From positions 6,014,001 through 6,078,000 of the forward strand of contig CM102287.1 in assembly GCA_046563655.1 (NCBI GenBank): 64,000 bases of DNA. Direction: 5' to 3'. The notes under the pieces were generated by a model. That model did no database searches and was not told the DNA's origin. It saw only the letters and a program-made list of their open reading frames with translations. Within the stretch, counting starts at the first letter, position 1. The number at the start of each line of letters is the position of its first letter. A program made the position numbers and the translations under genes. Shown here piece by piece: positions 12,022 to 48,546 of this stretch. This DNA comes from Yuukianura sp. NJ FZ-2021 (lineage: Eukaryota).

Positions 12022-12616
12022 TTAGGCTGCTACGATTCGATTGTCTTCGAGAATGACGAATCCATTTTCGTCAGCTCGGTATGACACTTTGATGAGTTTT
12101 CCTTCAAGGTCGTAGTATGTGTAGAATCCTTCCTTGACCAAGATTGGTCCATCTACTCCGCCAGGCTTGAATGAGAGTTGTTCCTGTCGTTCGGTTCCAT
12201 CCGAATTTTGGAATCCCCTGAAAAGTAGTTTCGAAATGTCAAAATTTTGGTTGGAATACCAAAAAATTTGGGTTCAGGAAATCAGGTTTAAGGAACAGAA
12301 GAAAACTTTAGTTAAAAGTTTACCAGTTAGCAGCTCCGTTGGCAAGTTCATCGAAATATTGTCTGACGATTGTCACATCGGCATCTCGCGTATTTTTGTT
12401 GTACGGAGTCGGGTTGATTGGTTTTGGGTTTGGCCTTGGTGGTTGCGTTTGTGGGTTGAAAGGTCGTTGGTTATTGAACTGGTTTTGGAACTGCTGCGCT
12501 GCAGCGAATCCCACCAAAGCAAGGAGTAAGACCTAAACAGTTTTGAAATTATGAAAGTCCAAAAATTGTAGAAAAATTTCGAAATTTTATTTTGAAAAGT
12601 GAATTACGTATTTCAT
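12022..12616 (-). CDS. RR-1-type cuticular protein, copy A (3 exons)
   Basis: MKY|VLLLALVGFAAAQQ...ADVTIVRQYFDELANGAANW|GFQNSDGTERQE...VKEGFYTYYDLEGKLIKVSYRADENGF. TATA-like TATAAAA near 12706-12712 on the minus strand. Confidence 0.9.
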
Positions 12617-13587
12617 GATGGCTGAAGAACCTGATTGGCTGAGCTCTGTCTGTAGTGATTGGACTCTGACTTCGTCTGTGACAAGTTCAAGCGACGCTTG
12701 TCCTTTTTTATACGCAGCAAATTCAGCAAAATGTTGCTTTGTTTCTTCGAGTCGCTTAAGACTTCAAATGACTTGGTTCCCCTTGGGGCAAGGTTGCCAA
12801 CTTTTTGGAAATGAAGACAGCCAAAAAATTAAAGTGGATGAGATATGGTTGAAGATGACCCCAAGAGTCAATGAATATTGGACACCCCTACTCTGTCTCA
12901 TAACGCAAATTTGCAAATTCAGAATTCTAGACATATGACATGAAGTGTCCAATTGGCTCACCTCGTCTTGGGCGGGAACCTTGTCATCTCTGGGCCATTG
13001 ACGACAAAACATGACGCTACAGAGGAATCTTGTGTCATTTAATCATCAAATGTTCACTTGGCATTTATTTTTCAGTCAGACGAAGTAGATGAAACCAAAA
13101 TATGCACTTTTTAGTATTGCGTAAGTTGTACTGCATAATTAGTCGATTAAGTGAGTGAGTCCTTTACCCATCAAGTAGCACCACTTAAGCGCACCTCTAA
13201 AAAGTGCAGAAGGTGAAGGTGCCATTGGTGCCGATTATGTGACACTTCGAGCCTCTCCTTCTCAAAAACGTCTTCTGAAGTGCCTCCCAGGACACTTTGA
13301 TCAATTAATCCGTTCATTAGTACATGTCAACTTCAAATTAACGGTCGGTAGCAACAATGTCGAAAAGGAAAAAATGTTTTGGCAGTTTTTCAAATTGCTA
13401 ATTTTTAAAAGTGTAGAACCAGAAAATGTTAAGGTCAGCGAGTCACCACAAATTAATTTCAATTCAATTGATAGTTGACATTAATTTGAATCTAAAATCT
13501 ATGTGAATCTTATGTATTATGAACCAAACCGTTACGAAAATCTAAAATATCTATTCTAAATCCGGGGGTAGTGCGCCCTTGCTTACG

Positions 13588-16322: not shown

Positions 16323-17351
16323 TTCATTATTGAAAAAACTGTAAGTTATAAACAAAGTGGACCAAAAATAACTTTAAGCTACTACGACTCGATTGTCCTC
16401 GAGAATCACAAATCCATTGTCGTCAGCTCGGTATGAGACTTTGATGAGTTTTCCTTCAGCGTCGTGGTATGTGTAGAATCCTTCCTTGACCAAGATTGGT
16501 TCTGGCCCAGTACCCCTTTTGAATGAGATTTGTTCCTGTCGTTCGGTTCCATCCGAATTTTGAAATCCCCTGAAAAGTATTTTCGAAATGAAAATTTTAG
16601 TTGAAGTAACAAAAAAAATTTAGGTTAGCTCAGGAAATCAGGTTTACAGCACAGAGGAAAACTTCTGTTGAAAGTTTACCAGTTAACAGCTCCGTTGGAA
16701 AGTTCATCAAAATATTGCTTGACGATTGTCACATCAGCATCTCGGGTATTCTTGTTGTACGGAGTCGGGTTGAATGGCTTTTTCGGTGGTTGGTTGAAAT
16801 TTTGTTGCGGAAAGTTCTGGAATTGCTGCGCTGCAGCGAATCCCACCAAAGCAAGAAGAAAGACCTAAAAATAGGTTTGAAATTATGAAACTCCAAAAAT
16901 TTTGAGATTTTATTTTGAAAACTGAATTACGTATTTCATGATGGCTGAAGACGCTGATTGGCTGAGCTCTGTCTTTAGTGATTGGACTCTGAGTTCGTTT
17001 GTGACAAGTTCAAGCGACGCGTGCCCTTTTTTATACGCAGCAAATTTGTTGTTGATTTGGTTCTTCTAGTCACTTGAAACACCAAATGACTTGGTCCCCC
17101 TTGGGGGAAGGTTGCCAAATATTTGGAAATTGAGACAACCAAAAAATTAAAGTGGATGAGATATGGCTGAAGATGACCCCAAGAGTCAACGAAAATTAGA
17201 CACCCCTAGTCTGTCCCATAACTTGAACCATTATTTCCAAATTCAGAATTCTAAACGTAGACTGATGACATAACTTAAAGTGTCACATTGGCTCATCTCG
17301 TCTTGGGCGGTAACCTTGACATCTCTGGGACATCGACAACTAGATGACGCT
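16323..17351. repeat. Direct segmental duplicate of about 11971-13018 (cuticle gene plus about 400 bp of promoter)
   Basis: Co-linear near-identity in exons, introns and upstream DNA, e.g. AAAAAATTAAAGTGGATGAGATATGG and CTCGTCTTGGGCGG in both copies. Confidence 0.9.
16374..16939 (-). CDS. RR-1-type cuticular protein, copy B (3 exons), paralog of 12022-12616
   Basis: Intact spliced ORF ending GFQNSDGTERQEQISFKRGTGPEPILVKEGFYTYHDAEGKLIKVSYRADDNGFVILEDNRVVVA*. Same intron positions as copy A. Confidence 0.9.
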
Positions 17352-20852: not shown

Positions 20853-22503
20853 ATGTCAGTGATGCAGGTTCGTACATTGACTAAATTGTCAACTTGTCAC
20901 CTTGTTTGAAATGTTGACAACTTTTTCCTTTTGGTTGTCCTGTGTCACTAGACTCAATCACGACATGCACACTGCATGTGCACACATAGTGTGCACGCAT
21001 GCACGCTGCATGATTCCTCATTTCTCCATCGGAAGAAAGCATTTTTTCATATTTTTTTCATATTTTTCATTTACATATGCATATCACAGAACTGTACATT
21101 GATTTTGGTTGACTTTGATTTGTAGACTATTGGCTTTTTAGGTTTTACGTTAGGCCAACTAAAGTTTTTCACACTCATTTGTTATGTTTTTACTTTATTT
21201 ATTTTTATTACTTTTTTGTGTTTTTGCGTTTTTAAACACAACTTTTGTTGCTTAGATTGCCAAGATGCCACCAATTCCGACTGAAACGATTGACCAAATC
21301 CCTTTGGGGTATGTTGAGAAACCGACCCAGCGACAAAGAAAAGATGTTTTGAAGATTCGACCTCTGAATGACCTCACAGACGTAGATCAAGATGGATTCA
21401 TTTCAACTCTAGAAGAATCCTATGTTCCACCGCCATTCACCATCAAAGAACTGCGTGACTGTATTCCAGCACATCTCTTCAAGAAGTCTCTTCTCAAATC
21501 GTCGTTGTATCTCATGGCCAATCTCTGCGCCGTGGCGGCCATTTTCTACGCAGCTACGTTCATCCACACTCTGGCTCCAGCTCCACTGGCCTTAGTCTTA
21601 TGGCCACTGTACTGGTGGTATCAAGGAGTAGCAGCTACTGGGATCTGGGTCATTGCTCATGAATGTGGTCACCAGTCATTCTCCGACTCCAAGGCCATTA
21701 ACAACTTCGTTGGACTCATTCTACACTCGATTCTGCTCGTGCCATACCATCCCTGGAGAATCTCACATGCTCAACACCATGCCTCAACTGGACATATTGC
21801 GCAAGACCAAGTTTTTGTACCCAAGAGACGCTCAGAAGTCAAGGTCAATCATGAACCGTCACCATGGCAAGAAGCTCTGGAAGCATCTCCACTCTACACC
21901 ATATACCATGTCTTCACTTACTTGTTTTTCGGATGGCCCGCCTACCTTATGATGCACGTCTCCGGACAAAAATACGACCAGTACACGTCCCATTTCCATC
22001 CAACGTCACCAATCTTTGAAAAACGCCATCGCAGCCAAGTTCTAATTTCTGACTTGGGTCTTGTCATTGTCTTGGCACTCATTGCCTCTTCGGTCTACCT
22101 GACATCCTTCTGGACCATGGCCAAGTTTTTTGGAATTCCGTACCTCCTGGTCAACTGCTGGCTCGTTACCATCACACTTCTCCAGCACACTGACGTCTAC
22201 TTGCCCCACTACGCTCCACATTCCTGGAACTTTGTTCGTGGAGCCTTGACCACGGTGGACCGAGACTACGGCTGGTTCCTCAACCACGCCCTGCACCACA
22301 TCCAAGATTCCCATGTCGCTCACCACCTCTTTTCCCAAATGCCGTTCTACAATGCCATCAAAGCCACGCCCTACTTGAAAGCCAAACTGGGCGAATACTA
22401 CTACTACGACCGAACGCCTGTCTGGAAAGCTCTGTATCGCGCAGTCCGGAACTGCGTCTTTGTTGAGGATTCGGGTGACATCCTCTTCTATCGCAACAAA
22501 TGA
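20853..22503 (+). CDS. Methyl-end (Delta12/omega-6, FAD2-like) fatty acid desaturase A; main exon 21256-22503, probable 15-nt first coding exon 20853-20867
   Basis: Three His boxes HECGH, HAQHH and HVAHH, plus FTIKELRDCIPAHLF, TGIWVIAH, WLVTITLLQHTD, WNFVRGALTTVDRDYG and MPFYNA. No cytochrome b5 domain. ATGTCAGTGATGCAG|gt splices in frame to ag|ATTGCCAAGATG. Confidence 0.93.
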
Positions 22504-23272
22504 GCTAGAATTACTTGAAACCTAACCTTAACCTAACAAAGGACGTTAGGTTAACAAGGTCTAAAAGCCTGCAACCTAACGTCCTTGCTCTATTTACTCA
22601 AATTTCCTAAAGTAGACTCAAAAGTCTTACAGAATCCATCACTATAATTTATATTTATTCCTTCATGTTGAGAGCTACGAGCTAAATCCAAATAAAACGG
22701 GAAGTTTCAATGTGTTTAACAAACTGACAGACAGACAGACAAAGTTTTATCATAAAGCAGCTTACGCTACTTAATTAGTAATTATAAGATTAGGTTAGGA
22801 AAAGTGGAACTTGTTTAGAAAATGGCAAGTTTTTAGAAAACGGGAGACTTTTGCAAAAAGTGCCGGGCATTGGAAAGTTATTCTCGGAAAACTTTGAATA
22901 ATTAAGGTGGGAGTTTTGGTATAACCTACTAAATCGATACGGTCTATGGAAATTTCCAAGGATGAATACTTGATGTTGCCAAAAAGAATTACAAGCGAAA
23001 CAAAAGCCAGCGTTTTGGTAGTTGATTTGAAAAAGTAGCACAAAAGGAAAAAACGTACCTTTGCAAATACTAACCTCTTTTTCCAATTTCCTCCTAAAAA
23101 GTAATCTATTTACGACCTTCCACGCGGCAGACTTTCTCCTCTTTGACTTTCCCCACCTTCCATTTCCTCCTTGTTGCTTAGTGAAGCTATTCACCTTCAA
23201 AGTGGCGCATCACCTACACTACTCACAGTTTTTTCTTTATTAAAAACTACTTATCCTGCTTTCTCCATAACC

Positions 23273-25672
23273 ATGGATCCAATTTCATTATCCGCAGAAC
23301 TAGTTGTAAGAAATTACCTCAATTTTCACTTTTTCTAAAAAAAACACACGAAACATTGGCGCATTGCAACAATTCTTAAATTTACACTGGGGACGCCTAG
23401 GACGCTTTGAAAAAACTTAAGCACACGCTCGTTTCTCAAGTGGTTGGAAACTAAGAATGAAACGGAATTGTTTTTTCGTAATTTGAACACGCAAGTAGAT
23501 GATTAGACTTCATAAGCGTTCTTGCGTGCAACAGTTTTAACACTCCCTACAGGTCATCATTTCGAAATTCAATATTTTATTAACAAGCTCAAATTCAATA
23601 TTTACAAGAAAAAAATTCGTCACATTTTCAAATTAAATATTTAGGAACAATAATTTTTTTCTTTACAAATTGAATTTCAAATTACGAGAAATTCAGTATT
23701 TTATCAACACACCAAACCTAAAGTTTAAGTGCTTTCTCCGGGTTTCCGGATTTGCGAGCTGCGCTAAACTAAACTTAAGTTTGAAAAAACTAACTCTGCT
23801 CTAAAATTAATGGCTTTGGTGCTTTATTTGACTTTTTCTATCAGAAAATGGCCCCAATGCCACCAGTGCCAACGACGGAAGCAGCGCCTTCTGAAATGAG
23901 TCTCCGTCCCTTACGGAATTTGGAAAAAGAGCGGGAAGCCGAAGAGGCTTCCAAAAAACGCCGTGGACGCAAACCTCTGAACGACCTCTCTGACATCGCT
24001 AAGAAAACTTTCCGAGCGGAATACGAAGCCTCATACGAACCGCCTGCCTTCTCCATCAAAGAATTGAGAGACTGCGTCCCTGCGCATCTCTTCGTGCGCA
24101 GCCTCTGGACTTCTTTGGCCTACATGATCGCCAACTTGGCAACCGTCGTTGCCCTCTTTTACTGCGCCACTTTCATTCCGAAGGCGCCATTTTGGATTCG
24201 GTGTGTCCTCTGGCCGACTTACTGGTGGTTTCAAGGAGTTGCAGGCGTTGGCATTTGGATTCTGGCTCATGAGTGTGGGCATCAGGCTTTCAGCGACTCC
24301 AAGACAATCAACAATACCCTTGGCTTCTTTCTGCATACCCTCGTTCTCGTGCCGTACCATCCCTGGCGTATTTCGCATTCTCAGCATCATGCCTCGACTG
24401 CTAATACGATGTTGGACCAAGCCTACGTTCCGCGTACCAAATCCGAGTACGTCATAACCTAACTAATCCTAACCATGCACGGTATAACTTCAGTACTGGC
24501 TCAACAATGGCCAGACCGATCCAAAATAATCGGGGAATCTTGCCTTTTTTTTCGCGAATGTTTTTTCGTCAATACTTTTTTGGACAGGATTTGGCCTAGT
24601 CGGGCGTCACGCGTTTAAACAAACTGTTCATAATTTTGAAAAACTAAAAACTTTGTTATGGGAAATCCTATGTATTCTAAAATCCGGATTTAAAACCGGA
24701 TTTTTTAAACAAAATCCGTCACCGCTTTCTAGAAATGCGGATTTAAATCCGGATTTTTAATCAAAATTCGTCAAAATTCAAATTCCAAGTTTCTAGAAAG
24801 CCGTGACGGATTTTAACGGATTTTGATTAAAAAATCCAGATTTAAATCCAGGTTTCTAGAAAGCGGTGACGGATTTACACCCCTACTTATCATACACGTC
24901 GCTGTGCGAAAAATAGTCCGTACATGAGTGTCCGGAAACTAAATTAATCAGCTTCGATTCCTAATTCGCTACCTAACTTAACAAACCGATTTCCACTCTG
25001 CTTAGGTACCGTCCCCACGGAGATCCGTCCCCATGGATGGAAGCGATCGAAGAGTCACCGATCTTTACGCTCGTGACGATGCTGGGAATGCTGCTCTTTG
25101 GATGGCCCGCTTACTTCTTCCTTCACATGTCAGGCCGAACCTACGAAGGGCGATTTGCTACTCACTTCATGCCATCTTCCCCGATCTTTGAAGAGAAACA
25201 CAAGTGGCAAGTCCTGACCTCTGACCTCGGGATACTCGTTATGGTAGGCAGTTTGGTCTGGTGGGCCAACGTCACTTCATTCTGGGTCATGTCATCTTTC
25301 TATGGCATTCCGTATCTCATCGTCAATGCCTGGCTCATTACCATCACACTGCTACAACATACTGACGTGTACTTGCCGCACTATGCTCCCGATTCCTGGT
25401 CATTTGTGCGCGGGGCGTTGAGTACCGTGGATCGCGATTACGGCTGGTTCCTCAACCACGCCTTCCACCACATCCATGACTCCCATGTCGCTCACCACCT
25501 CTTTTCCCAAATGCCGTTCTACAATGCAATCAAAGCCACGCCCTACTTGAAGGAAAAACTAGGCGAGTACTACTTGTACGACCGAACGCCTGTTTGGAAA
25601 GCCTTGTACCGTGCTGTACGAAACTGCAAGTACGTAGACGATGCTGGCAGCGTTCTGTTCTACCGACGCTAA
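23273..25672 (+). CDS. Methyl-end (Delta12/omega-type) fatty acid desaturase B (exons 23273-23305, 23845-24446, 25006-25672)
   Basis: His boxes HECGH, HSQHH and HVAHH, co-linear with copy A. Phase-2 intron GA|gtacgt...cttag|G restores KSEYRPHGDPSPWME. Upstream exon MDPISLSAELV|gtaag is in frame. Confidence 0.92.
24678..24885. mobile_element. Palindromic MITE-like remnant inside the desaturase B intron
   Basis: AAATCCGTCACCGCTTTCTAGAAA...GGATTTAAATC (from about 24712) is inverted at about 24816-24876. Many AAATCCGGATTT units. Ends ACACCCCTA. Confidence 0.65.
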
Positions 25673-26480: not shown

Positions 26481-27082
26481 TTAAACGTGCTGAACCGAAC
26501 TGGCGTTGTTTGAAAACGGATTCGGGGGAGGCGTTGGAATGTGACTTCCGACTGGTTGAAATCCATTTTTGTCTAAAAATGAAATTTCGGAAATGAAAAA
26601 AACTTTGAACATTGAATTTGGAAGTATTTTTTCATTGGCAAAACATTTTTTATGGTTTACCGGCAACGTATGTTACGGAGATTAGTTCACCGTTGGGTGC
26701 TGTGTAGGAGTAGCTGCCTTTTACTACTTCGCCACCACCACTTTCCGCTTCGTCACTGGCAGCGCCACCTACTAGGTCCGATTTGGCCACACTTCCCGGT
26801 TCCGTTACTCCGGACTGTTCGGCCTTGAATCCATCACTAGTTTCAATCTCCCACTTGAAACTTCCATCCCCGTGGTTCTCAAATTCACTTTTCAGAATGG
26901 TCGCCACAGTCTTGTTTTGCTGCGACAGGGCTGCAGGAGGCTGTGCTGAGTTCGGACTCTGCGGACGACTTAAGCCAAGCGCCACCAATGCTAGAACTGC
27001 GACGGCCTGAAACAAATTCAAAATACTTCAATATTTTCAATTTTTTTTAAATTTAAAATCTCACCGTTTTAAGGAGAGTCAT
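26481..27082 (-). CDS. RR-1 cuticular protein (3 exons)
   Basis: Signal peptide, then ATILKSEFENHGDGSFKWEIETSDG...VVKGSYSYTAPNGELISVTYVA|DKNGFQPVGSHIPTPPP, the classic RR-1 signature. TATAAAA near 27148-27154 on the minus strand. Confidence 0.93.
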
Positions 27083-27408: not shown

Positions 27409-30400
27409 TCACTTGTAGAATTTGTTTGAATTCATAGTCCAGGTAAGCATTTTCTGGAAGAGCTCAACATCCAAATCAGTGATGAATTGTACGTTACTTT
27501 TTACACTCGACTCAAAATCAAATGACACATGACCTCTCTGATTCCCATGGAGTTCCATTGACACAGGATGACAGCTCGTTGAGCGGATGACATTCGGTTC
27601 TATTAAGGCCGCCATGATGGTGGAGTCAAATGGTCTCCATGTCCCTAACTGGTGAACTCTGCCCCCCTCTTCAAAAGCACTTTTCTCAATTAAGTTCATG
27701 AATCTGCACTCCGGAGTATCTTCCTTCCCAAGCACATTCAGTCTCCAGTCCTGAAATATTAAACAAAAACATTAAAAAACAATGCTTCACAAATTAACTA
27801 AAAAACTGAAGAAAATTCGCCATTTGTGCATAGGATTCGTCCCAGTCCCATAATCACGCTGTTTCATACAAAGATCTGTATTAACTGATGCCAAAAATAC
27901 TGACGATGAAGGTAAAAATTGAAGAAAAGAATTGAGCCACGAAGGTCAAGAGGTCAAATTAAACTTTATTGACGATGTCTGGTTTTCATAAGGTCAAATA
28001 CGCTGGAACGACGCCGTTCAGTCCCTACAGTAGTGTCCCTCCGGACGTCAGTACTCATTGTCGACAGCCGTCGCATGTGTGCTAGTGACTCTCTCTTTAT
28101 CACTGACTTCCTCAATGTCGTCGATTCCCGCAGCACCCTTTCCTCCTCCACGTCGTAGTCCCACGGAACAGCAAACATTGCAGCCATGTCAGCTCTCTTC
28201 AAGAGCTGTCTGGAGTATCCCTTGTAATGGTAAACTATATGCTTCGCCTGTAATTTTAAAACAAACAATACAAAAATCTTTCAAAATTTTCAAATTTTCA
28301 AATCAATTGCAACGTACGCTGACGTCTTCGTAGTCAAAGTAATTAATTCCGAGATTCCTAGCCAGTCTCCTCGCAAGTAGTCTCATCACGTGCTCATTCC
28401 TACCGTATCGAGACAGTTTGATATCCTCCACAAGATACCTAAAACCAACAACAAGTTATTCAGATGATACTAAATCCAAGATCATTTTCCAAAGTGACTG
28501 TACCCGCCTACAATGATGAAATAGTGGAAGTCATTCAGAGAGTCCATGCTGCGAGCCAGCCTGATGTACACGTTGTATATTTCCTGTTCTGCAAGCACTT
28601 TCTTGTTGGCTTGAATACGCAAAACATAGCCACCCATCTAAAACCATTCCAAAAATCATTAACATTTGAAAAATTAAACTTTTAGAAAAAACACTATTCT
28701 AAAAAGTGAAAGTTTGACCTACCCGAGATATGATGAGTTCTCTTGTACAGAGGTGACCGTAGAGCAAGTACAGTGCAAATAAAATGGCCATGACGCACAT
28801 GAATGTCGGAAGAGGATAGTTTCCTACCATGACATGAAACAATATAGTGAGGAAGACGACTGCTGTAAGACAAATGAGTCCTTCGACAAAAATGTCCGGC
28901 CGGAAACGAATGTAATACAATCCATTTCCCAGATCTTCAAATGGATAATACTGATTAACAGAAAGATTCCAGTAAAAGTCTTCTTCGGGACTGAATTTCC
29001 AACGGGCTTTGACTGATTTCCACCAGGAGGTGCCACCCACAATCATGCTTTCGTTTTAGGCACAGTTTTCATTTTCAGAACTACATTTTGAACAAAATTA
29101 AGAAAAATTTCCGAAACTAAAGCAAAAAGTTGTTCCGTGTACAAATCGGGGAAGAGCCGGTAGCTACGGAGACGAATCGTCTCCGATTTTTAAAACGATT
29201 TTGCGTATCGTCTCAGACGATATGCAAAATCGTTTGAAAAAATCTGCCGAAAATTGCAGCGAATATCCAAATCTCGAAGCGTTTTTGGACGTGGGCGACG
29301 TGTTGTAGAGCACGAGCGAAATCTAACTTCTAAGATTACATATTGGGTACGTTTTGTCATGTGTGTCAAACCTAATATGTCTTTCTAACTTACCGGAGTC
29401 TGTACGGCAACTTCGGAACCAATTTCCTTCGGTGAAACAATAATTGGACAAGAAAAAGAAGTCAGCGTGACATGGACACTTTCAGGGTCAGAGAGGAAGT
29501 TAAATTCCGGACCATCAGTGCATAAATCTAAACACAAATTCAGGAAATTAGTAAACGTATTGAAATGCAACTTTCGTTCTAAAGAATACTGTCGTCCTAA
29601 AGTACTCAAATCTGCAACATACCATTACTACCGTTTCCTCCCATAATAAAAATTTCCTTGACTAGATTCTTAATCCGATCATCAGCTCGTACTGCAAGTC
29701 CCAAATTGGTCAACGGTCCCAAGGCCACAATTGTTAATCGTCCTAATGTGAACAAAATTTTCAAATCAAGTTAACAAAGTGTTCTATGCGGTTAGTTTTT
29801 TTTTTCATTAAGATGTAAATTCAACCTGCGAATTTCTTAGCCATTTGGATTATAACATCAACAGCGTTTTGCGGCTCTATTTTGGCTTCCGGTCTTTTCA
29901 AAATGGCTTCATCCACGTCTCCGAATCCATTACTACCATGATGAGTAGCCTTGGAGTGAAACGCAGACGGAGTAACCATTGGATGAGCAGCGCCACGAAA
30001 AACTGGAATCTAAATTATACCATTCCCTTCAGTTTGGGTTACAAAAATAGTTTGCATTGAGTATTTAATGAGTAAAGACTTACGTCAGTAATTCCCATTT
30101 TGTCCAGAATCATTGTTACGTTAACTGTCACATTGTCTATGGTCGTATTGCCATGAACACAAGTGATTCCAACAATCCGAAAAGGAATGTCCGGATGCTG
30201 ATGGGCCTTTAAAGCCATGATGATTGCCAACGTGTCATCCAGCCCGGCATCAGTATCAATCAAAACGATTCTCTCCTGAAAAGAAATAACACAGATTTAA
30301 CAGTTTTGGAATTTTGGAAATTGGTACTTCTAGAAGGGAGAAAAAGTAGACTGTTGAGAGTTGGAGCATTTGAGTGCTCAAAATTTGAAATTTGTCAAAT

Positions 30401-30513
30401 TTGGACACTGTCGGACCGACAATGTCAATCGACTGACGAGTTTTAATTCTGATTTGAAGGAAGACAAAGAGGTTATAAATGAAATAAGAATGATGATAAC
30501 TTACAGTATTCAT
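27409..30513 (-). CDS. Inosine/uridine-preferring nucleoside hydrolase 1 (6 exons; last intron 29393-27751 is 1.6 kb)
   Basis: DTDAGLDD Ca-binding motif, ITCVHGN, HGSNGFGD, LGPLTNL, MGG and EFNFLSDPE. Last exon DWRLNVLGK...PFD...VSMELHGNQRG. Confidence 0.9.
27966..29046 (-). CDS. TMEM249: TMEM249 / CatSper-theta-like two-TM protein (exons 29046-28723, 28637-28504, 28438-28318, 28247-27966), nested in the hydrolase intron
   Basis: Spliced ORF with PEEDFYWNLSVNQYYPF, two hydrophobic helices, NVYIRLACSMD, LARRLARNLGINYFDYEDVS|AKHIVYH. These match, in order, motifs I recall from vertebrate TMEM249 (LKNNSFYPF, VYVRLALSSD, IARKLNINYFDY, SYRHVVRH). All three introns are GT-AG and frame-compatible. 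Confidence 0.8.
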
Positions 30514-31225
30514 GTCAGTTTTCAAGTTACTAAAAAAAATCCCGTTCCAAGCTCCGTTCGAGCCGATATTCGAAAACAAACTAAAGCGTGCAGATTTTGT
30601 TCACCGGCGACGCCTTTTGCTTGTCTTTGCCACTTCTTTCGTTGTCTTAGTATGCTATCTGTGTTGTCATCGGACGCTGATTGACACTGACCTCTAAATG
30701 TTAATGAGGAGAGTATATTAATAGCTGTGGTTTAATATTTAGAGGTTTCAACTATTGGCTAACTTACCCACAGCTTGCTACAGTAGGGATCCGATTCCGA
30801 CGCCTGCGCTCTGTAGTAAGGTCAGATTCTTAATTTAAGAAGCTTATGGAATTAATCAACATGATTGACTGATCTTACTGTGTACTGTCCTGTTATGAAA
30901 TCTTGCTCTTACGCTCTGTGTTCCGATTCTGCTCTCCGTAGATTTCCGATGAGCGAATCTAACCCTAATATAACCCTCCCATGTCAACCCCAATGCACTT
31001 TCCAGAAGTTTTAAAAAATCGGGGTAAGCTGAGTAGGGATTTGCTTTAAAGCTAATAAAATAAATAGCTGATTTAAAATCATGAATAAAATTTGTATGTA
31101 AAATGGCTCCTCTCATTTGTAATTTTTACTGGTACAAGTGTGGGACATGGGTTAACCATAAAACATAAAATGCATTGTACATTTCCAAAAATAAACTTGA
31201 AAATTATTATTATTGGTGCAAGTAC

Positions 31226-32717
31226 TTACAGCATTTCATATTCTATACCACCTACGCCCCAAAGCATCACCTTCTCAAACAGTTCTTGATCTATTTCACT
31301 AACAATCGTGGTCTTCTTAGACTGATTAAGAACATCCTCGGTGTCAACAATCATGAGGCCCCTCGTATGACGTCCAGCAACCTCCACAGTACAGTGATAC
31401 TCCACAGAATTCTTGATGACCTGAGCCACACAAAAAGTGTCGGAATCATTAACTTTTTAAAACCTTTACAACATCAATCATGATTCTTGAATGTTTGAAC
31501 AAGTTACACGATGGTCAATCAGGGCAGCGGCAACTACTTGGTCACAAGGCGTCCATCCGTTGTACTTCCGCGTCCACTTTGAAGCTGACAACACTTTGTG
31601 CTCGATTTTATTCATCAACTCAGCAGCAGGGGTGTCCACTTTCGCTAAAACATCTCGTCGCCATTCCTAAACATCAAAGGAAGTTAAATTTGCTAATTAA
31701 AAACACAAATGGAAGAACGGAACTGGTTCAGAAAGTAGGAATACTGTTTACCAATGGCCTAGTAGCTTGACGAAGACAAACTTCCCATGGAACAATGTAC
31801 ACCGGACAAGCGTAACTGGAAAGCGTGATATACGCTGCTTCCGGATCAAAGAAGAAGTTAAATTCTCCACTCACTGTCACATTTCCGACCCCTAAAAGAC
31901 AAACAATATGCCTATTAGTCAAATCTAATCAAGATTCCTAATTCCTAAATAATTTCCAAAATTCAATTGAAATGCTTGATTTTACCTTCGATGTTCCCAC
32001 CCATTGCATAAATCTCACAAACGCAATCACTAATCGTAGGATCCAGTCGGATTGCCATTGCCAAGTTAGTATGAGGGCCGAGAGCCAGGATACTCAACTT
32101 TCCTAAAAACAATAGTCGAAATACTGTTACTTTGATCAGATAAAGTATAAGAAATTAAAAAAAAATACTCACTAACCTTTGTACTCATGCGCCAATCGGA
32201 TTATGGCTGACACTGCGTTCTCGGACTCCAACTTGGGTTCAACCACGTCATCAAAAACGTCCCCAAATCCATCGTGTCCATGATATGGCGTCTCTTCTAC
32301 ATTCTCGTAAGGAAACACTACTGGCACCTCGCACCCTCTGAAAATTGGAATCTTGAAGGACGTGGTTAAGAAATGCTTATCATCCCAATGAACTTACTGT
32401 TATATAATTTATTTGAATGCAACTGCTTACCTCTTTCAGTCCAGTAACATCCAGAAGTCTGGTAACATTCCTAGTAACATTGTCGACTTTTGTGTTGCCG
32501 CTAAGACATGTGATTCCAAGGACTCTAATCGCATGCTTTGGAGATTTGTGTGCTTGCAAGCACATTAGAATGGCCATGGCATCATCAGTCCCAGCGTCGG
32601 TGTCAATTAATACGAATTTCTCAGTGGCCTAAAAAGTTACAGAACAAAATTAATGAAAGCAAACATCACTTTTCTTTAATTAATCAATTAATTTTGAATA
32701 ATTAAGAGCGTTACCAT
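31226..32717 (-). CDS. Inosine/uridine-preferring nucleoside hydrolase 2 (7 exons; first coding exon is ATG only)
   Basis: DTDAGTDD, ITCLSGN, YHGHDGFGD, LGPHTNLA, MGGN, GNVTVSGEFNFFFDPEAAYI, PWE, WTPCD and VEVAGRHTRG. Confidence 0.92.
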
Positions 32718-36686: not shown

Positions 36687-38304
36687 ATGCGATCTGAGCT
36701 ATTGCATTCTGAGCGACCATCCAGTTTTGCAGGCATTTGGAAATATCCTGCTGGCCGGGAATTACTTTTCCAGAGTGCAGTCGATTGGATGAATGGTGAG
36801 GCAAGAGTTTATGGATTCGCAAAAAAATACTAACTTTTGGTAAAAAGTACTTTTAAGTACAAGAAATTAAGAAATACTTTATTTTTGAAAATAGGAAAGA
36901 GACAAGATGACAATTTGAACGGTCTGTGGAGAGTTCATGACAAAATTTACGATCTACAAACTTTTATTAAACACCATCCTGGAGGTTCTGATTGGTTGGA
37001 AATGACTCGTGGAACAGATATTACCGAGTCGTTTGAAGTTTCGCATATAGCCAATCCGGAATTAGTTGAAAAGACTCTCAAATCATACTTTGTTTGCAAT
37101 GCCACTTCACCCCGAATGTCACCGTATGCGTTCGATGACAACGGATTCTACAAAGTTCTCAAGGCAAAGGCTGGACCAGTGGTGAAGGTCTGATCTCCAT
37201 TTTGGCTGTCGCTTTTTATGTTGACGTTTGGCATTGATAAAAAGTTGCGTTAGATTTTTTAAAACAAATTAAGCAATTCTTTTTATAGGCTATTGGATCA
37301 GGACCGACTCCACAGATCCTATGGATGATGGATTCTTTAGTGATTCTGTTTCTTCTGATGACACTTTTGGCAACAACTGTCGATTCTTTCACGTTGCAAA
37401 TTTTGACTGGACTGGTATTGGCTCTCACGACAGTTGCAGCACACAATTTCTTACATCTAAAACAAAATTGGCGAACTTACTACTACGACTTGTCCTGGTT
37501 TTCTTCCTATGAGTTCCGAATCACCCATGCCCTTAGTCACCACTTATATCCAAACACAATCATGGTGAAATTACTCAAACTTTTTTCCAACAAGTTTTGA
37601 GGCGATGTTTAACCAATTTATCCTATTTTTTTTAGGATTTTGAAATTTCTGCGTTTGAGCCTTTTTTGGAATTCTTGCCGAAACGAAACAAGAATTGGAT
37701 TCAGCGTTACGGCCCTGTTTTCTACAGCCACGTTATTAACGCTTTGGTTTTATTTGTCGCTTTTTGCACACGTTGGTTTCGGATATCCAAAGGTCACCAA
37801 GCCTTTTACCCCGAAAACCTTCTCCCAATTCTCCATCTTCTATTATGTTTCGCCTTCAGTCCATCTTTGACCTCAGCAGTATCTGCTTGGCTCACAATCC
37901 ACTTCTCAGCTTCCTACTTCTACCATCTAATTGGATTCAATGCTGCCCATCACCATCCGAGCATATTTCATGATGGAGATGAGGCCAGGGCAGATCCAGA
38001 TTTTGGCCTTTGTCAACTCGACGCTGTTCGAGAGCGTTCGGATCCACTGATTCAGAACTCTCTATTTGTTCAATTGATTGGATTTGGAGAGCATTCGCTT
38101 CATCACCTCTTCCCTACAGTATGCATTTCCAAACTGATGTACTTGAAGCCTATTTTGGAAGATACGCTGAAAGAATTCGAAGAAGAATTTCCAGCGATGT
38201 CGCAGAAGGAGCTGTTTGTTGGAACGCTAGCGCAACTCAGACGGATTCAGCGACATGGCCTTGAAGAACAAAAAAAAATTAGCAACCACAATTACGACGA
38301 GTAA
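36687..38304 (+). CDS. Cyt-b5-r: Cytochrome b5-related protein (cyt b5 domain fused to a desaturase-like domain), 4 exons
   Basis: LWRVHDKIYDL..FIKHHPGG..WLEMTRGTDITESFE, AHNFLH, THALSHHLYPNT, NAAHHHP, FGEHSLHHLFPT. Confidence 0.9.
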
Positions 38305-43521: not shown

Positions 43522-45216
43522 TCAGTAGGACAGCAAGCTAAACGCAATTCCCCGCGCCAAATTGTCCAGTAGAGTTAACTTGGCTTTCTAGAAGCAAAAA
43601 AAGACACAACTCGACAACTTGAGTTTTTCTTAATTAATTACCGACCAAGGTATTTATGAGTCTCATTGCCGGGAATTTCCTTTTCCCGATGCCTTATACA
43701 ATCCTCCAACGGTACATTTTAAAACTGGTAGTGAAATCAGCGTTTTAATGCGTAAATTCCATAGGGGCAAAATAGGCGGTTGAAGTTGTCGATTCAGGTT
43801 GTTCATGTTCTGACGAAATTTGGACGAAATGTTGTAGACTCTGGACATGAGCATTGCGCCAGGAGCAATCAAAATTCCGAAAGTTACGGTATAGAACTAC
43901 TCGCCAATAAAACAGTCATTCCCGGATGCAGAGCATGACGCAAACGTATGATGACCGAAAGCGGCTATGAATGTAGCCAATATTATACCGAGTTTTAAGG
44001 TTGGTAAAAATAGAGATCCGTATGCAATGTTCTGGAGTTGGTTCAATAGTTGCATTGAACGGTAAACTCGGATACAAGTCGTTCCCTTGTCTTGAACATT
44101 TGTGCACTCCAAACTGATCAAAAAAAAATTTAACGCAGAGATTGTGTCGATTATTACCGAAAGACGTGGTTCGAAAAAAAATCATTAAAAAGACAAATTA
44201 AAAGAAAATCTAAATATATAGTTTTTTCCTTTTAACTACAGTAGAAGTAGAACCTATTGCAAAATGCGTTCTGATTGGTCGATATAAAAAAAAGTTGTAT
44301 GTGTTACCGTTCTCCTCTGCTATCTGATTTGAAAGTAGAAATTATTTAACTTTAATAGTATCCCGCAGTTACGAGAGGCGCAGCTTACGCTAGATGGGTT
44401 CTACTGTCATAATTCTACTTGTCATAATCATAATTTTTATTGTGGTCAGCGATTGCTTACCAAGCTTTGCTCAGCCATAGAATAATTGTAAGTAATGATG
44501 GTACGAACACTCCAGTAAGAATTTCGGCATCGCTCAACAGTTGAATTGTGCAAACTGTCTGACCTACTGCAATACACACGCATATACAAAACGTCGTAAA
44601 CATTGGAGCAGTGATCACAATTCCAAGAATTCCAGAAGAAATTATAGATCCTGCAACCAAATAGGACATACAAGCATACATTTTTCCACGAAACGATGCA
44701 TTATGCACAGCTTTGGTCAATTCGGTTCCAGCATCTTCCATTTGAACTTTTCCTACCAAAAACAGAATCCTATCATGCAATGAAAACATTCAAACCTTTC
44801 AAAAAATACAACCAACCACAAGATTTGTAAGGAAATCTAAAGAAAAAAATTGTTACAATACCAAGAGCACTTTCAGTCCCAACGCTGAAAATATTGTTGA
44901 CAAGATGCGTTAGTTCATTCTGGTAGAACATCATGGTTAACCGAAGTGGCACTGCGGCGACAGCAGCAGTAAATAGTAAAACAGTTATGACTTTAACTGT
45001 AGCAGAGGTTGTAGTTAAACTTCGGAGAAGCAGTAGCGCTGCATTCAAAATTTGAAAAGTTAGCAAAATTTTTCGAATTTGTGATCGTACTTTTCCCGGG
45101 GGTGAAAATGGTTTGACATGAAAAGAGTTTTGAACCAATTCAATTTCCGACATTTTTAAATATGCGAAATTATTTAATAATTTTTGTAAGAATTTCAGTT
45201 CATATTGAGTTAACAT
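43522..45216 (-). pseudogene. Disrupted gustatory/odorant-receptor-like gene, paralog of 46469-47875
   Basis: Co-linear with its neighbour (MLTQYELK, CIRVYRSMQL, PGAMLMS, PVLKCTVGGLY, KAKLTLLDNLARGIAFSLL). It has a frameshift near 43950, a TAG at 43899-43897 and no exon-3 donor before a TGA at 43665-43663. Confidence 0.75.
44239..44407. mobile_element. Short Tc1/mariner-type MITE remnant in a receptor pseudogene intron
   Basis: TA-CAGTAGA(AGTAGA)ACCTAT at the left and ATGGGTTCTACTG at the right are inverted termini of CAGT type. This intron is much longer than the equivalent one in the paralog. Confidence 0.55.
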
Positions 45217-46468
45217 TCTTATTACACTTTTTTTTTGCTGATCAAATCCCGGAGAAAATGTTTCTTTAACTGTTATGGATTTGAACAATTCGTCTGAAGT
45301 GCAAGGAAATGCCAACAGGGAGCATGTATCTGCATTTGCTACTGTATTTGAATTTTTTCACACCTCAAAACCCTTCACTACCGCCCTGTCATTAGTCTAA
45401 TTAGGTACTCATGGGCCAATTTTCACCTTTTTCTCGCAGCTTTTCCAGTAGAAGCTTGTTGAGGGCCCCAATTTTAGTCAAACTTTGAAATTGTAATGTG
45501 TGCTTTCATTAAAAATGTTGTGAAGGACATTATTTAAGCTTGAGCAAGGACTACGACAAAAGTTTTCTCCAGGAAATTAAAGATGAAAGGAAGAAGCATC
45601 AATTAAAGTTGAAGGTTGTCCAACCAGCAAATGGGGTTACGATTCAACTTCAAAATTCATGCTCGGCAAATAACTGTATACTGTCCGCATTGCCAAATTG
45701 TTAGCTGGGCTACATGGTGAAATGGCCAAAATATTTGGCCAAAAGTGAAAAGGCCGCCACAATGCAAAAGACGATTGGATATGGATAGGTTAGATGAGGT
45801 TTTTTCCTTTTTACTTTTTTTCCCTAACCTTTTCACTTTTAGTCATTTCACTTTCTAAGCAAATTACATAAATACACACTAAACTTTATTTTAAAAAAAA
45901 AGTAAGTACAAAGTTCCGAGTTGCTGAGGCAGTTATAATTTACTCATTCATATATTTACTCACGATTAAACACAAAAGTGCCAACTTCATTTCTAATTTG
46001 CTTTTAATTACTAATATGAGATTTAAGCGCAGCAGACGTCATTTGAAAAGGCTGTTAACTCTAATTCCTTTCTCCAATTACGGTGCACTATTCAGTGCGG
46101 AGAATAAAATTACAGGAGACGCCTAGGTCACAATTACCATCCATTTTGTCTTATTGACGTTTCTGTCGCACCTTCTTCGGACCATGAAGCGTTTTAACCC
46201 GAAATTAACATTTTAGTGCTGTCCCGCCTATCGCAGTCCTTTTTTTTTAGAAGTTAAAGCAATTATTACACGTGCCAAAATTACCGAGTAGAGTCAATGT
46301 GGCTTTCTGAAACGCCAAAAAAATTATTGAGGGTAACTTCACGAAAGAAAGTCGACGTCGACTTCGCGCTCAAAATTTTGTCTAAAGGCATTACCGATTT
46401 TAAGAAAAAGCTGTTAATAATATCATAAGATAAAACAAAAATTTTATGAATCCTTTTTCGACTAGTTT

Positions 46469-47875
46469 TTAGATGGAAAGCAAACTGAAGGCAATTCCAC
46501 GTGCCATGTTGTCCAACAGTGTCAATTTGGCTTCCTGAAAACACAAAGTAAAAAATACCAATTTTTTTGAATTCTTGAATTAAAAAATTCATTCTTAAAA
46601 TTACTTTTACAAGCTTTTAGGCGTATGTTAATCATCGACTAACCCCTTCCATATGATACAATCCTCCAATTGTACATTTTAAGACCGGCATTGATCTTAG
46701 CGTTTTGGCGTAGTATCGTTGTGGAACTGGAACAGCATTTTCCAGTTGATTAACACCGTTGTTCATGTTCTGATGGAATTTGGATGAAATGTTGTAGACT
46801 TTGGACATGAGCATTGCACCAGGACCAATCACAAGCGTCATGTTGATTATATAAAAGACAAGTGCGACGGTGATACCTGGATGAAGAACATGATTCAGAC
46901 GTACGAGACAGAATACGACCATGCATGTAGTTACAATCACTCCCAGTTTTACGGTAGGCAGAAATATTGATCCGTAGACAACGTTGTGGAGTTGGTTCAT
47001 CAGTTGCATTGACCGGTAAATACGGATACAACTCGGTTGCTTACCGTCAACATTAGCCCACTCTAAACTGAATAACAAAAATAAAATTTTAAAACGTGTA
47101 AACCAGTGTAACTTACGATTAGAAACTTTTTTTTTCAAAATTAGTGCGAACCAGGCTTTACGGAGCCAAAGTATAAGAGAGACTATGGATGGAACGAAAA
47201 TTGCCAAAAGCAGCGTAGTATCGCTCGCCAATTGAAACCAGCAAATGGCCTGGACAATAACCATGACGATGGAGATCCACCATGATGAAAACATGGACCA
47301 ACTAACAAGAATTCCAATAAGTCCAACGGAAAAGATGCTTACAGGAACGCAGCACATCATCGCAGCATACAATTTAGCACGGAGCAATTTCTCCTGCGTG
47401 GCTTCCAGTTCCACTTTGGTTTCAGAACTTTCTCTTTCATGCTGATCTAAAAGTTTCAAGAAAAGTAAAAACTTGTTAAATTTATGAACTACAAATTAAA
47501 CAGGCTAAGGGGTTGAACATAAATCTTACCAAGGATTTGACCGATGCTGAAGACGTTATTGCTGAGCTGAGCCAGTTCGTTCTTGTATAGCAGCATAGTC
47601 AAGCGGAATGCGATTGACGCAGTGCCTTCGATTGCTACGATCATCGCTATGATTTTAATCGTAACAGACGTTGTGGTAAGAATTCGTGTCAGCAAAAGAA
47701 GCACATTTAGCACGTGACCAATCAAAAACGGTTTTGCAAATATTGCTCGTATTCCTTTCACCTCAACTACTCTAACTTGGAAAGAATTTTCAATCAATTC
47801 AATTTCTACCACTTTAAGGTTCGTCAAAATTGCAAGAACAGTTTGACACAATTTCAATTCATATTGCGTCAGCAT
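46469..47875 (-). CDS. Multi-TM chemoreceptor-like (GR/OR superfamily-like) protein, 4 exons, apparently intact
   Basis: About 390 aa with multiple hydrophobic helices, YRSMQLMNQLHN, and PVLKCTIGGLYHMEG|EAKLTLLDNMARGIAFSLLSI* with a phase-0 intron before the last helix. This layout is typical of arthropod GR-type receptors. The family call is by architecture only. Confidence 0.65.
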
Positions 47876-48546
47876 TTTGAATTTGATTTTTTAAGTGTGG
47901 ATTTGGGGAACTATTTCCAATTCGAAATGAGATTGAGATTCAAACGAAAGCTGTCGTTTTATCTTCCTTATTATAGCCTTAAAATTGTACGGTTTTTGTT
48001 TACTAAACGTTTAAGTAAGTTTATTATAAAGGGCAAACCCTCTGTAATTGCCCCAGAAAAGTGCCAAAATTTCTAATTCGTTGCTAATTGCGGTATAAGT
48101 TAAGGTGAGAAGTAAAAGTTAAAAGAGAAGTAATTTGTATAATGTTGAACAAATATAAGTAACTACTTAAGTAATTACGCTGTGTAACAAAGTCGCTCAT
48201 TTTCCATAATTTCATAAACCGTTGCTTGTGAAGCTGAAAATATTTTTCTGAAAATTAACGTTCCTCAGCTTAAAACGTGGAAAATTTTAAGGTAGAGAAA
48301 AAAGTTGGACCAAGATCAAAAGCAATTTTGTTAAAGATGAGTCTTTATTTTTTTAATGTCTTACCTAACTTAGTAATTAATTTGCAATTACATTTTAACA
48401 AGTAGGAACTAAAATGTGAATAGTTAAATAGCTTTGCGCTTCCAACTTCTTCGGTGCGAAAGGATAAATTAAGTAGTAAATGAGTAAGGAAAAAAGTTGT
48501 GCTTCTATACACTTTTTCACTAGAATCCAAATTACTTTGGAAAACT

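What the first reader, a model, noticed from the sequence alone, without database searches (positions are those of the whole stretch)
20853..25672. Tandem plant/fungal-type methyl-end desaturases in an arthropod: possible horizontally acquired de novo PUFA pathway
Seen: two intact FAD2-like genes (HECGH / HxxHH / HVAHH, no cyt b5 domain) embedded among cuticle genes, which argues against contamination. Both have a tiny phase-0 first coding exon at the same place, and their TM regions are well diverged. Known: most animals lack omega-x desaturases, the characterised cricket and beetle Delta12 enzymes derive from the Delta9 family, and omega-x genes occur patchily in invertebrates with HGT proposed for some. 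Inference: an acquired gene that was duplicated and domesticated. The pair may divide Delta12 and Delta15/omega-3 steps, or one copy may be a divergent FAD2-type enzyme, since residues before box 3 differ (LHHIQDSH vs FHHIHDSH).
Basis: partly seen in the sequence, partly recalled or inferred. Interest (0 to 1): 0.75.

Follow-up and report, generated by a model that had tools for sequence, protein, structure and literature searches.

The report
Pathogen-derived fat desaturase pair in springtail
A springtail-type genome carries two intact, side-by-side genes for a fat-desaturating enzyme that most animals lack, likely taken long ago from a relative of the arthropod-infecting Entomophthoromycotina fungi, which would let the animal make its own 'essential' polyunsaturated fats.

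Summary
Observation confirmed. Two intact FAD2-type (methyl-end) desaturase genes lie in tandem: A (20853-22503, 420 aa) and B (23273-25672, 433 aa). Both have three His boxes, no cytochrome b5 domain and a tiny phase-0 first exon, and they sit between cuticle-protein genes. A second species (L025) has the same A-B-cuticle-nucleoside hydrolase order with different internal introns, so this is not contamination. The host groups with the springtail Allacma by one marker gene. In trees the pair and its unnamed relatives are sister to Entomophthoromycotina fungi (SH-aLRT/UFBoot 99.8/100) and share a motif found in 23 of 249 rows, all in these two groups. Plant-donor, oomycete-donor and fungi-without-the-animal-clade trees are rejected (AU p<=0.017). 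A looks like an ordinary Delta12 enzyme. B is the derived copy, with changes between boxes 1 and 2, including Tyr at an iron-proximal site that is Phe in 71 of 71 named fungal relatives. B lacks the usual Delta15 signatures, so a Delta12/Delta15 split is open, not shown. A horizontally acquired omega-x gene in a springtail was reported in 2018, with an oomycete affinity; a fungal-pathogen donor and a conserved diverged pair were not found in my searches.

The parts
20853..20867 (+). Gene A exon 1 (5 codons, phase-0 donor)
   Evidence: homologous MSV.. exon with phase-0 GT in L021
20868..21255 (+). Gene A intron 1 (GT-AG, 388 nt)
   Evidence: acceptor 9 nt before the conserved Met, as in L021
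21256..22503 (+). Gene A exon 2: whole desaturase domain. Box 1 21658-21672, box 2 21766-21780, Phe192 21814-21816, lone His 22186-22188, box 3 22312-22326
   Evidence: positions converted from residue numbers
22267..22395 (+). Tract of gene A (codons 343-385) nearly identical in DNA to gene B; likely gene conversion
   Evidence: 5 of 38 same-amino-acid codons differ, against 105 of 204 elsewhere; permutation p=0.0002
23273..23305 (+). Gene B exon 1 (11 codons, phase-0 donor)
   Evidence: conserved MDPIS.. exon in L025
23306..23844 (+). Gene B intron 1 (GT-AG, 539 nt)
23845..24446 (+). Gene B exon 2. Box 1 24268-24282, box 2 24376-24390, Tyr205 (= A Phe192, Fm1 Phe157 equivalent) 24424-24426
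24447..25005 (+). Gene B intron 2 (GT-AG, 559 nt, phase 2); absent from gene A and from the B orthologue in L025
25006..25672 (+). Gene B exon 3. Lone His 25358-25360, box 3 25484-25498, converted tract about 25439-25567
26502..27027 (-). Downstream cuticle-protein gene (PF00379), syntenic in L025
16374..16864 (-). Upstream cuticle-protein gene (PF00379)
27412..32650 (-). Nucleoside hydrolase genes (PF01156), syntenic in L025

Best explanation
These are two intact host genes of the FAD2 (methyl-end) desaturase family, likely acquired once by a springtail ancestor from a relative of the arthropod-infecting Entomophthoromycotina fungi and then duplicated in tandem; copy A is predicted to convert oleate to linoleate (Delta12), and copy B is predicted to have a shifted substrate or product. 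SHOWN: gene structure, all iron-ligand histidines, conserved gene order in a second species, purifying selection, tree position, B-specific residues. INFERRED from the family (PMC6314118): ER-membrane di-iron enzymes that take electrons from the host's separate cytochrome b5 and put a cis double bond three carbons beyond an existing one. INFERRED history: transfer, gain of a 5' exon/intron, tandem duplication, later lineage-specific intron gains, and occasional gene conversion near box 3. The genome also has Delta9-type, front-end desaturase and elongase genes, so a route from 18:0 to C20 PUFA would be complete if the activities hold. Odds: Entomophthoromycotina-related origin about 0.85; A is Delta12 about 0.8; B differs from A in activity about 0.6.
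For: Best named hits of A are Neoconidiobolus (59%), Massospora (62%, 52%) and Entomophthora (55%); rank 15 clusters with Conidiobolus coronatus; no named animal protein is among the 120 listed of 2041 hits. Animal clade + Entomophthoromycotina: FastTree 1.0 on 249 rows; SH-aLRT 99 on 76 rows, C20-PMSF quick tree; 99.8/100 on 40 rows, LG+F+G4; 100 under PMSF. The motif HTDV[YF] after the lone His is in 23 of 249 rows, all in these two groups. AU under LG: fungi without the animal clade p=0.017, oomycete donor with fungi intact p=0.010, plant p<1e-4, Mucoromycota p=0.0007; the four alternatives retested under PMSF have p<=0.0013. L025 keeps A-end, B, cuticle, nucleoside hydrolases in the same order and orientation. 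dN/dS about 0.09 for B/L025B and 0.10 for A/L021A. Host RPF2 groups with Allacma fusca at 99.2/100 among 26 rows. Conidiobolus coronatus and a Neozygitaceae species infect collembolans (PMC10386553, passages). B clade 99.9-100 support with 9 derived columns, 6 of them between residues 133 and 192. Three front-end desaturase loci, several Delta9-type loci and 57 elongase exon matches are in G000.
Against: No enzyme assay and no expression data (one search listed no run). The Delta12 labels on the Entomophthoromycotina proteins are annotations. Direction rests on rooting: grouping with Zoopagomycotina is 94/87 under LG but was not recovered in the 40-row PMSF tree. The loose constraint 'animal clade + oomycetes' was not rejected under LG (p=0.054 and 0.062), although it survives only by pulling the oomycetes beside Entomophthoromycotina on a zero-length branch. 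The PMSF site profiles came from the free tree and the constrained PMSF searches were fast ones, which favours the free tree. No named nematode, cnidarian, lophotrochozoan, copepod or Sminthurus omega-x protein was in my trees. Most members of the 'animal' clade are unnamed metagenome records; an arthropod host is supported only for the window, L025 and L021. The host is placed by one gene with one named springtail.
Confidence: 0.7

Rival explanations
1. Same origin, but B is a Delta15/omega-3 or bifunctional Delta12/Delta15 enzyme, so the pair makes alpha-linolenate from oleate.
For: B-specific changes hit both mappable cluster-I positions of the bifunctional enzyme Fm1: Tyr at the Phe157 equivalent, and Leu at the Leu153 equivalent in 3 of 4 B rows where 65 of 71 named fungi have Lys or Arg. 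The region between boxes 1 and 2 sets substrate preference in fungal omega-3 enzymes (PMC6479736). No other omega-x gene was found in G000 with the window, oomycete or FAD3-like queries or with PF00487. Animal omega-x genes often come in pairs (PMC5931762).
Against: B keeps Gln after box 1 (Fm1 110 equivalent, shared by Fm1 with omega-3 enzymes) and Asn at the Fm1 284 equivalent, the FAD2 state that lowered Delta15 activity in Fm1. B is no closer to FAD3-like rows (35-36%) than A is. Mapping to Fm1 is by offset from the His positions given in the paper, not by alignment.
Confidence: 0.35
2. Both copies are Delta12 desaturases that differ only in chain length or head group, or in tissue, stage or temperature of expression.
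For: Both keep Delta12-type states at the cluster II positions and after box 1. Gene conversion homogenises the box 3 region. Phe before box 3 is common in plain fungal relatives (35 of 71).
Against: Nine derived columns are fixed in all 4 B rows across species, one of them Phe in 71 of 71 named fungi. The same Phe-to-Tyr change occurs in two long-branched A-side paralogues (P0009, P0011), which suggests a specificity switch.
Confidence: 0.35
3. B is an unusual FAD2-type enzyme (hydroxylase, conjugase, acetylenase or C16-specific) for pheromone or defence lipids.
For: The derived residues lie near the iron site. Such activities arise from duplicated FAD2 genes in plants and fungi (recalled).
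Against: The Met after box 3 and the Thr after box 2, whose change marks plant hydroxylases (recalled numbering), are kept in B.
Confidence: 0.12
4. The link to Entomophthoromycotina is real but the direction is reversed (arthropod to fungus), or both received the gene from an unsampled third lineage.
For: In constrained trees the animal clade stays beside Entomophthoromycotina and the fungi re-root there. The two groups are sisters; the animal clade is not nested inside the fungi's clade (Entomophthoromycotina monophyly 77-88).
Against: Fungi plus the animal clade is supported at 95-96.5, and fungal monophyly without it is rejected (p=0.017 and 0.0006). No non-fungal source for the animal gene appears among 249 rows.
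Confidence: 0.08
5. Oomycete donor, as written for Sminthurus viridis.
For: PMC5931762 says the collembolan sequences are closest to Oomycota. Springtail AOX is also reported as oomycete-derived (bioRxiv 10.64898/2026.06.01.729305). The loose constraint was not rejected under LG (p=0.054-0.062).
Against: Identity to Aphanomyces is 47% against 52-62% for Entomophthoromycotina. The strict oomycete-donor tree is rejected (p=0.010 LG, 0.0013 PMSF). The HTDV[YF] motif is absent from the oomycete rows. Only 2 oomycete-type rows were used, one of them named.
Confidence: 0.04
6. Fungal contamination or misassembly, or vertical inheritance from an animal ancestor.
For: The nearest named relatives are pathogens of arthropods, a likely source of contamination. 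Named animal omega-x clades were not in my trees.
Against: Synteny with cuticle and nucleoside hydrolase genes in an independent assembly, where B differs at 11% of non-synonymous sites and has other introns. The position is at 6.0 Mb in a chromosome-scale contig. The clade falls inside fungi.
Confidence: 0.03

Closest known systems
Entomophthoromycotina Delta12-type desaturases (Neoconidiobolus thromboides P0010, Massospora cicadina P0013/P0017, Entomophthora muscae P0016, Conidiobolus coronatus P0139)
   Same: Sister clade at 99.8/100; 53-60% identity to A and 48-55% to B over aligned columns; exclusive HTDV[YF] motif.
   Different: The window genes lie in an arthropod chromosome, have a new 5' exon, and form an A/B pair with no counterpart among the fungal rows. 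The fungal activities are annotations only.
Sminthurus viridis omega-x desaturases (Kabeya et al. 2018, PMC5931762)
   Same: FAD2-type omega-x gene in a springtail, proposed horizontal transfer, proposed basis of linoleate synthesis.
   Different: Reported as closest to Oomycota, within a mixed clade that includes fungi. The passages I read give no genomic anchoring or assay for it. I could not obtain its sequence, so it may be a separate acquisition or the same clade placed differently.
Bemisia tabaci BtFAD2 family (PMC10933598)
   Same: Horizontally acquired, duplicated FAD2-type Delta12 genes in a hexapod.
   Different: Plant donor (food), rejected here; function tested there.
Fusarium verticillioides Fm1/Fm2 bifunctional Delta12/omega-3 pair (PMC6314118)
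   Same: Paralogue pair; identical His spacing (36 and 42 residues); B differs from A at the equivalents of cluster I residues 153 and 157.
   Different: B keeps Asn at the 284 equivalent and Gln at the 110 equivalent, the Delta12-type states.
Cricket and flour-beetle Delta12 desaturases (PMC5816129)
   Same: Same predicted reaction as A.
   Different: Derived from the Delta9 family; unrelated origin.

Membership tests
Methyl-end (omega-x, FAD2-type) desaturases | Three His boxes HxxxH, HxxHH, HxxHH plus the lone His at family spacing | tested here: met
   A 140/176/316/358, B 153/189/330/372; spacings of 36 and 42 equal those given for Fm1
Methyl-end (omega-x, FAD2-type) desaturases | No fused cytochrome b5 domain; third box begins with His, not Gln | tested here: met
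   Pfam on the three exon translations; HVAHH in both
Methyl-end (omega-x, FAD2-type) desaturases | Groups with FAD2 and fungal Delta12 proteins | tested here: met
Methyl-end (omega-x, FAD2-type) desaturases | Membrane di-iron desaturase fold | tested here: met
   AlphaFold model of A, mean pLDDT 73; among its top four PDB matches are two AlkB structures (E 0.02-0.03, TM 0.36-0.38); the two best (8xqw_M, 8xks_K, TM 0.67) are motor-complex chains whose family the tool does not name
Delta12 desaturase (activity) | Converts 18:1n-9 to 18:2n-6 | not testable with these tools
   Only residue states: Gln after box 1 and Asn at the Fm1 284 equivalent in both copies
Delta15/omega-3 desaturase (gene B) | Omega-3-type residues (Fm1 110 and 284 equivalents; FAD3-like box context) | tested here: not met
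   these markers are imperfect, since Gly follows box 1 in 15 of 71 named fungal relatives
Delta15/omega-3 desaturase (gene B) | Converts n-6 to n-3 PUFA | not testable with these tools
   needs an assay
Domesticated horizontal transfer | Anchored among host genes and conserved in a second species | tested here: met
Domesticated horizontal transfer | Nested in a non-animal donor clade with alternatives rejected | tested here: met
   named animal omega-x clades were not sampled
Domesticated horizontal transfer | Transcribed in the host | tested here: inconclusive
   No run listed; indirect support from conserved splice sites and dN/dS near 0.1
Kabeya clades 1-3 or the Sminthurus lineage of animal omega-x | Groups with those sequences | not testable with these tools
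   No named member was returned; the supplement text held no hit

The most novel reading that the evidence does not exclude
A springtail lineage took a Delta12 desaturase from its own fungal pathogen, duplicated it, and evolved the second copy into a new omega-3 or bifunctional enzyme through a Phe-to-Tyr switch at the iron site, without the usual omega-3 signatures. This would be an independent animal origin of complete de novo omega-3 PUFA synthesis and a genetic basis for springtails as EPA producers in soil food webs.
Probability: 0.3. Interest if true: 0.72.

Novelty: new variant of a known kind. Interest (0 to 1): 0.52.

Why it matters
Springtails are reported to make linoleate (Malcicka 2017, seen only as cited in PMC5931762) and some are rich in EPA (Kuznetsova 2025, seen only as cited in PMC13701199), but my ten literature searches found no characterised springtail omega-x enzyme. 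This locus supplies two genome-anchored candidates that a yeast assay can test directly. It points to an arthropod-pathogenic fungal lineage as donor, rather than food plants or oomycetes. It also offers a natural A/B pair for finding what sets regioselectivity in FAD2-type enzymes. Horizontal omega-x genes in hexapods are a known phenomenon, which limits the surprise.

Tried and rejected
RNA evidence: no RNA holder listed; no evidence either way. Viral source: no pattern match in viral contigs. Host from TFB2M: uninformative, best named hits 30-33%; the ESM Atlas gave only 'Arthropoda'. The careful 76-row treekit search did not finish in two runs, so the quick tree and a 40-row set were used. 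The support labels printed were shifted by re-rooting; corrected values are. The first PMSF free search failed and was redone. GC3 is 0.56 (A) and 0.60 (B) against 0.41 for two valid host genes; two other comparators were read in the wrong frame and dropped; no conclusion drawn. Rejected: the Q/H residue before box 3 as a paralogue marker (B-type rows: H in 3 of 5, Q in 2 of 5); plant and Mucoromycota donors (AU); further omega-x genes in G000 (which score only the best candidates). The three-way conversion test alone was borderline (Fisher p=0.064). Malcicka 2017 is not held. The Kabeya supplement gave 8,664 characters of text with no hit, one file was not searched and the figures are not visible, so the S. 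viridis accession and its exact tree neighbours are unseen. No earlier finding matched this sequence or these words.
Full report
OBSERVATION. The window holds two complete FAD2-type genes on the + strand. Gene A has a 5-codon first exon (20853-20867) and one long exon (21256-22503), 420 aa. Gene B has an 11-codon first exon (23273-23305), then 23845-24446 and 25006-25672, 433 aa. All three introns are GT-AG and neither frame has an internal stop. Pfam finds FA_desaturase and no cytochrome b5 domain. The His ligands lie at the spacing given for Fusarium Fm1. Cuticle-protein genes flank the pair, followed by nucleoside hydrolase genes. The locus is at C5:6.03-6.04 Mb of a 98.7 Mb, 22-contig assembly. 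Four searches of that genome found no other omega-x gene.

HOST. The neighbouring RPF2 exon is 73% identical to a cluster holding Allacma fusca, against at most 65% for a Calanus cluster and 62% for named insects. In a 26-row tree it groups with Allacma and three unnamed rows at 99.2/100. The host is therefore likely a springtail. This rests on one gene and one named springtail.

NOT CONTAMINATION. A metagenome scan gave 7 loci from 42 pattern matches. L025 (9.6 kb) carries the last 29 codons of an A-type gene, a whole B orthologue, the cuticle gene and the nucleoside hydrolase genes in the window's order and orientation. Its B gene has the same tiny first exon, lacks the window's intron 2 and has two other introns. 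L021 carries an A orthologue with an MSV.. first exon and the acceptor 9 nt before the conserved Met, as in the window. L024 is a B-type fragment with an intron close to the last intron of L025 B. Orthologue pairs give dS 1.4-2.1 and dN 0.12-0.21. The pair is old, kept under selection, and has gained introns independently.

ORIGIN. Of 2041 hits among the 7997 candidates scored, the 120 listed contain no named animal protein. The first named hits are all Entomophthoromycotina. I pooled these 120, two cluster members, 150 representatives from the 50%-identity library and four gene models, dropped 27 rows for low coverage, and kept 249. The window's clade is sister to Entomophthoromycotina in every tree: FastTree 1.0, 99 on 76 rows, 99.8/100 on 40 rows, 100 under C20-PMSF. 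The motif HTDV[YF] just after the lone His occurs in 23 of 249 rows: 17 of the 18 window-clade rows (the eighteenth is truncated before it) and all 6 Entomophthoromycotina rows. AU tests under LG reject fungi without the animal clade (p=0.017), a strict oomycete donor (0.010), a plant donor (<1e-4) and a Mucoromycota donor (0.0007). The four alternatives retested under PMSF have p<=0.0013, with the caveat that the profiles came from the free tree. Against this, the loose constraint 'animal + oomycete' was not rejected under LG (p=0.054 and 0.062), though only because the oomycetes moved next to Entomophthoromycotina on a zero-length branch. Nesting with Zoopagomycotina is 94/87 under LG and 89 on 76 rows, but absent from the 40-row PMSF tree, so the direction fungus-to-animal rests on placement inside fungi (95-96.5). 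Rejection of 'Zoopagomycota without the animal clade' partly reflects weak support for Zoopagomycota itself. Named nematode, cnidarian, lophotrochozoan and copepod omega-x proteins were not in the set, so vertical descent is excluded only indirectly. Contact is plausible: C. coronatus and one Neozygitaceae species infect collembolans (PMC10386553, passages).

DUPLICATION AND DIVERGENCE. The A/B split is the deepest node of the animal clade, and the B clade has 99.9-100 support. Nine columns are fixed in all 4 B rows and derived against both the A clade and the fungi: A positions 133, 137, 163, 165, 184, 191, 192, 236 and 309. Position 192 maps, by offset from the His positions in PMC6314118, to Fm1 Phe157, which lies within 5 A of the irons in their model and changes activity and product ratio when mutated. 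The mapping is consistent with the paper's statement that FAD3-like enzymes have Trp there and with the FAD2/FAD3 states at 284. It is Phe in 71 of 71 named fungal rows and Tyr in all 4 B rows, and also in two long-branched A-side paralogues, P0009 and P0011. Position 188 (Fm1 Leu153) is Leu in 3 of 4 B rows and Lys or Arg in 65 of 71 fungi. However, both copies keep Gln after box 1 and Asn at the 284 equivalent, the Delta12-type states. So A reads as a conventional Delta12 enzyme, and B as a modified FAD2-type enzyme of uncertain product.

GENE CONVERSION. Across codons 343-385, A and B differ at 5 of 38 same-amino-acid codons, against 105 of 204 elsewhere (permutation p=0.0002). B and its orthologue show no such dip (p=0.50); A against L025B shows a weaker one (p=0.03). 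There is a 47-nt identical run. In L025 the A end and B are also closer to each other (pS 0.35, 28 codons) than either is to its window orthologue over that stretch or overall (0.9 for A; 0.64 for B, whole gene). The three-way test alone is borderline (p=0.064). The L/F and Q/H codons sit between identical runs, so they escaped or post-date the conversion.

MECHANISM. By family knowledge (PMC6314118, abstract and two of five parts of the main section; PMC9825965, passages) these would be ER-membrane di-iron enzymes using host cytochrome b5 and O2 to add a cis double bond three carbons beyond an existing one. The AlphaFold model of A (mean pLDDT 73) is helical, with AlkB di-iron enzymes among its top matches. 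The genome has several Delta9-type loci, three front-end desaturase loci and many elongase exons, so linoleate from A could be extended to C20 PUFA. Whether n-3 products are made depends on B or on another family. None of this is assayed.

PRIOR WORK. Kabeya et al. 2018 (PMC5931762; passages, first of five parts of the main section, supplement text without hits) report omega-x sequences in Sminthurus viridis, closest to Oomycota, within a mixed clade that includes fungi. Whitefly FAD2 genes come from plants (PMC10933598, passages). Cricket and beetle Delta12 enzymes derive from Delta9 (PMC5816129, passages). Springtail AOX is reported as oomycete-derived (bioRxiv 10.64898/2026.06.01.729305, passages). 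PMC13701199 (passages) cites high EPA in springtails; PMC6479736 (abstract and passages) places substrate preference between boxes 1 and 2. Ten searches showed no paper linking a springtail desaturase to Entomophthoromycotina; I saw most results only as listings, and subscription papers are missing. I recall, without a call, work by Ohhara and colleagues on EPA synthesis in Sinella and possibly on cytochrome-b5-related omega-3 desaturases in Folsomia; if right, B need not be the omega-3 enzyme. An earlier AI note on this genome also proposes an Entomophthoromycotina donor for a Kha1 antiporter; I did not test it.

VERDICT. Real, intact and domesticated. Fungal origin near Entomophthoromycotina is well supported; A is likely Delta12; B is a derived paralogue whose product is open. 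New variant of a known kind; interest 0.52.

Noticed in passing
window 36834-38304 (+); also G000 C4:14256516-14257436: Cytochrome-b5-fused desaturase-like gene (Cyt-b5 plus FA_desaturase; 'Cytb5-related' type), 11 kb from the pair, with a paralogue on C4. I recall, unverified, a report of omega-3 activity in this family in springtails.
   Followed up: partly
G000 C4:5090453-5091199, C7:3984532-3992728: Three front-end desaturase loci with a cytochrome b5 HPGG motif (QIEHH-type third box seen in two), two of them in tandem on C7; insects mostly lack these (recalled).
   Followed up: partly
proteins P0009, P0011: Long-branched A-side paralogues from unnamed records that share the Phe-to-Tyr change and Phe before box 3 with clade B; P0009 has an altered first box (HNCGH). 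Possible parallel change of specificity.
   Followed up: partly
window 12022-13042 and 16374-17205 (-): Two similar cuticle-protein genes with near-identical upstream sequence, a recent local duplication.
   Followed up: no
window 27412-32650 (-), L025 3983-9440: Two or three tandem nucleoside hydrolase (PF01156) genes, conserved in L025; in the window a TMEM249-like ORF (28699-29055) lies among them.
   Followed up: no
window 44457-47890 (-): Tandem chemoreceptor-like membrane proteins with no Pfam family for the one tested; Atlas look-alikes are unnamed arthropod clusters.
   Followed up: partly
window 24690-24880: Intron 2 of gene B contains short repeated units, some inverted, that look like a small mobile-element remnant; seen by eye only.
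   Followed up: no
G000 elongase search: 57 ELO exon matches on at least five contigs, suggesting a large elongase family.
   Followed up: no
named hits: Many Mortierellaceae Delta12-type proteins carry the wrong name 'Fatty acid oxidation complex subunit alpha'.
   Followed up: no
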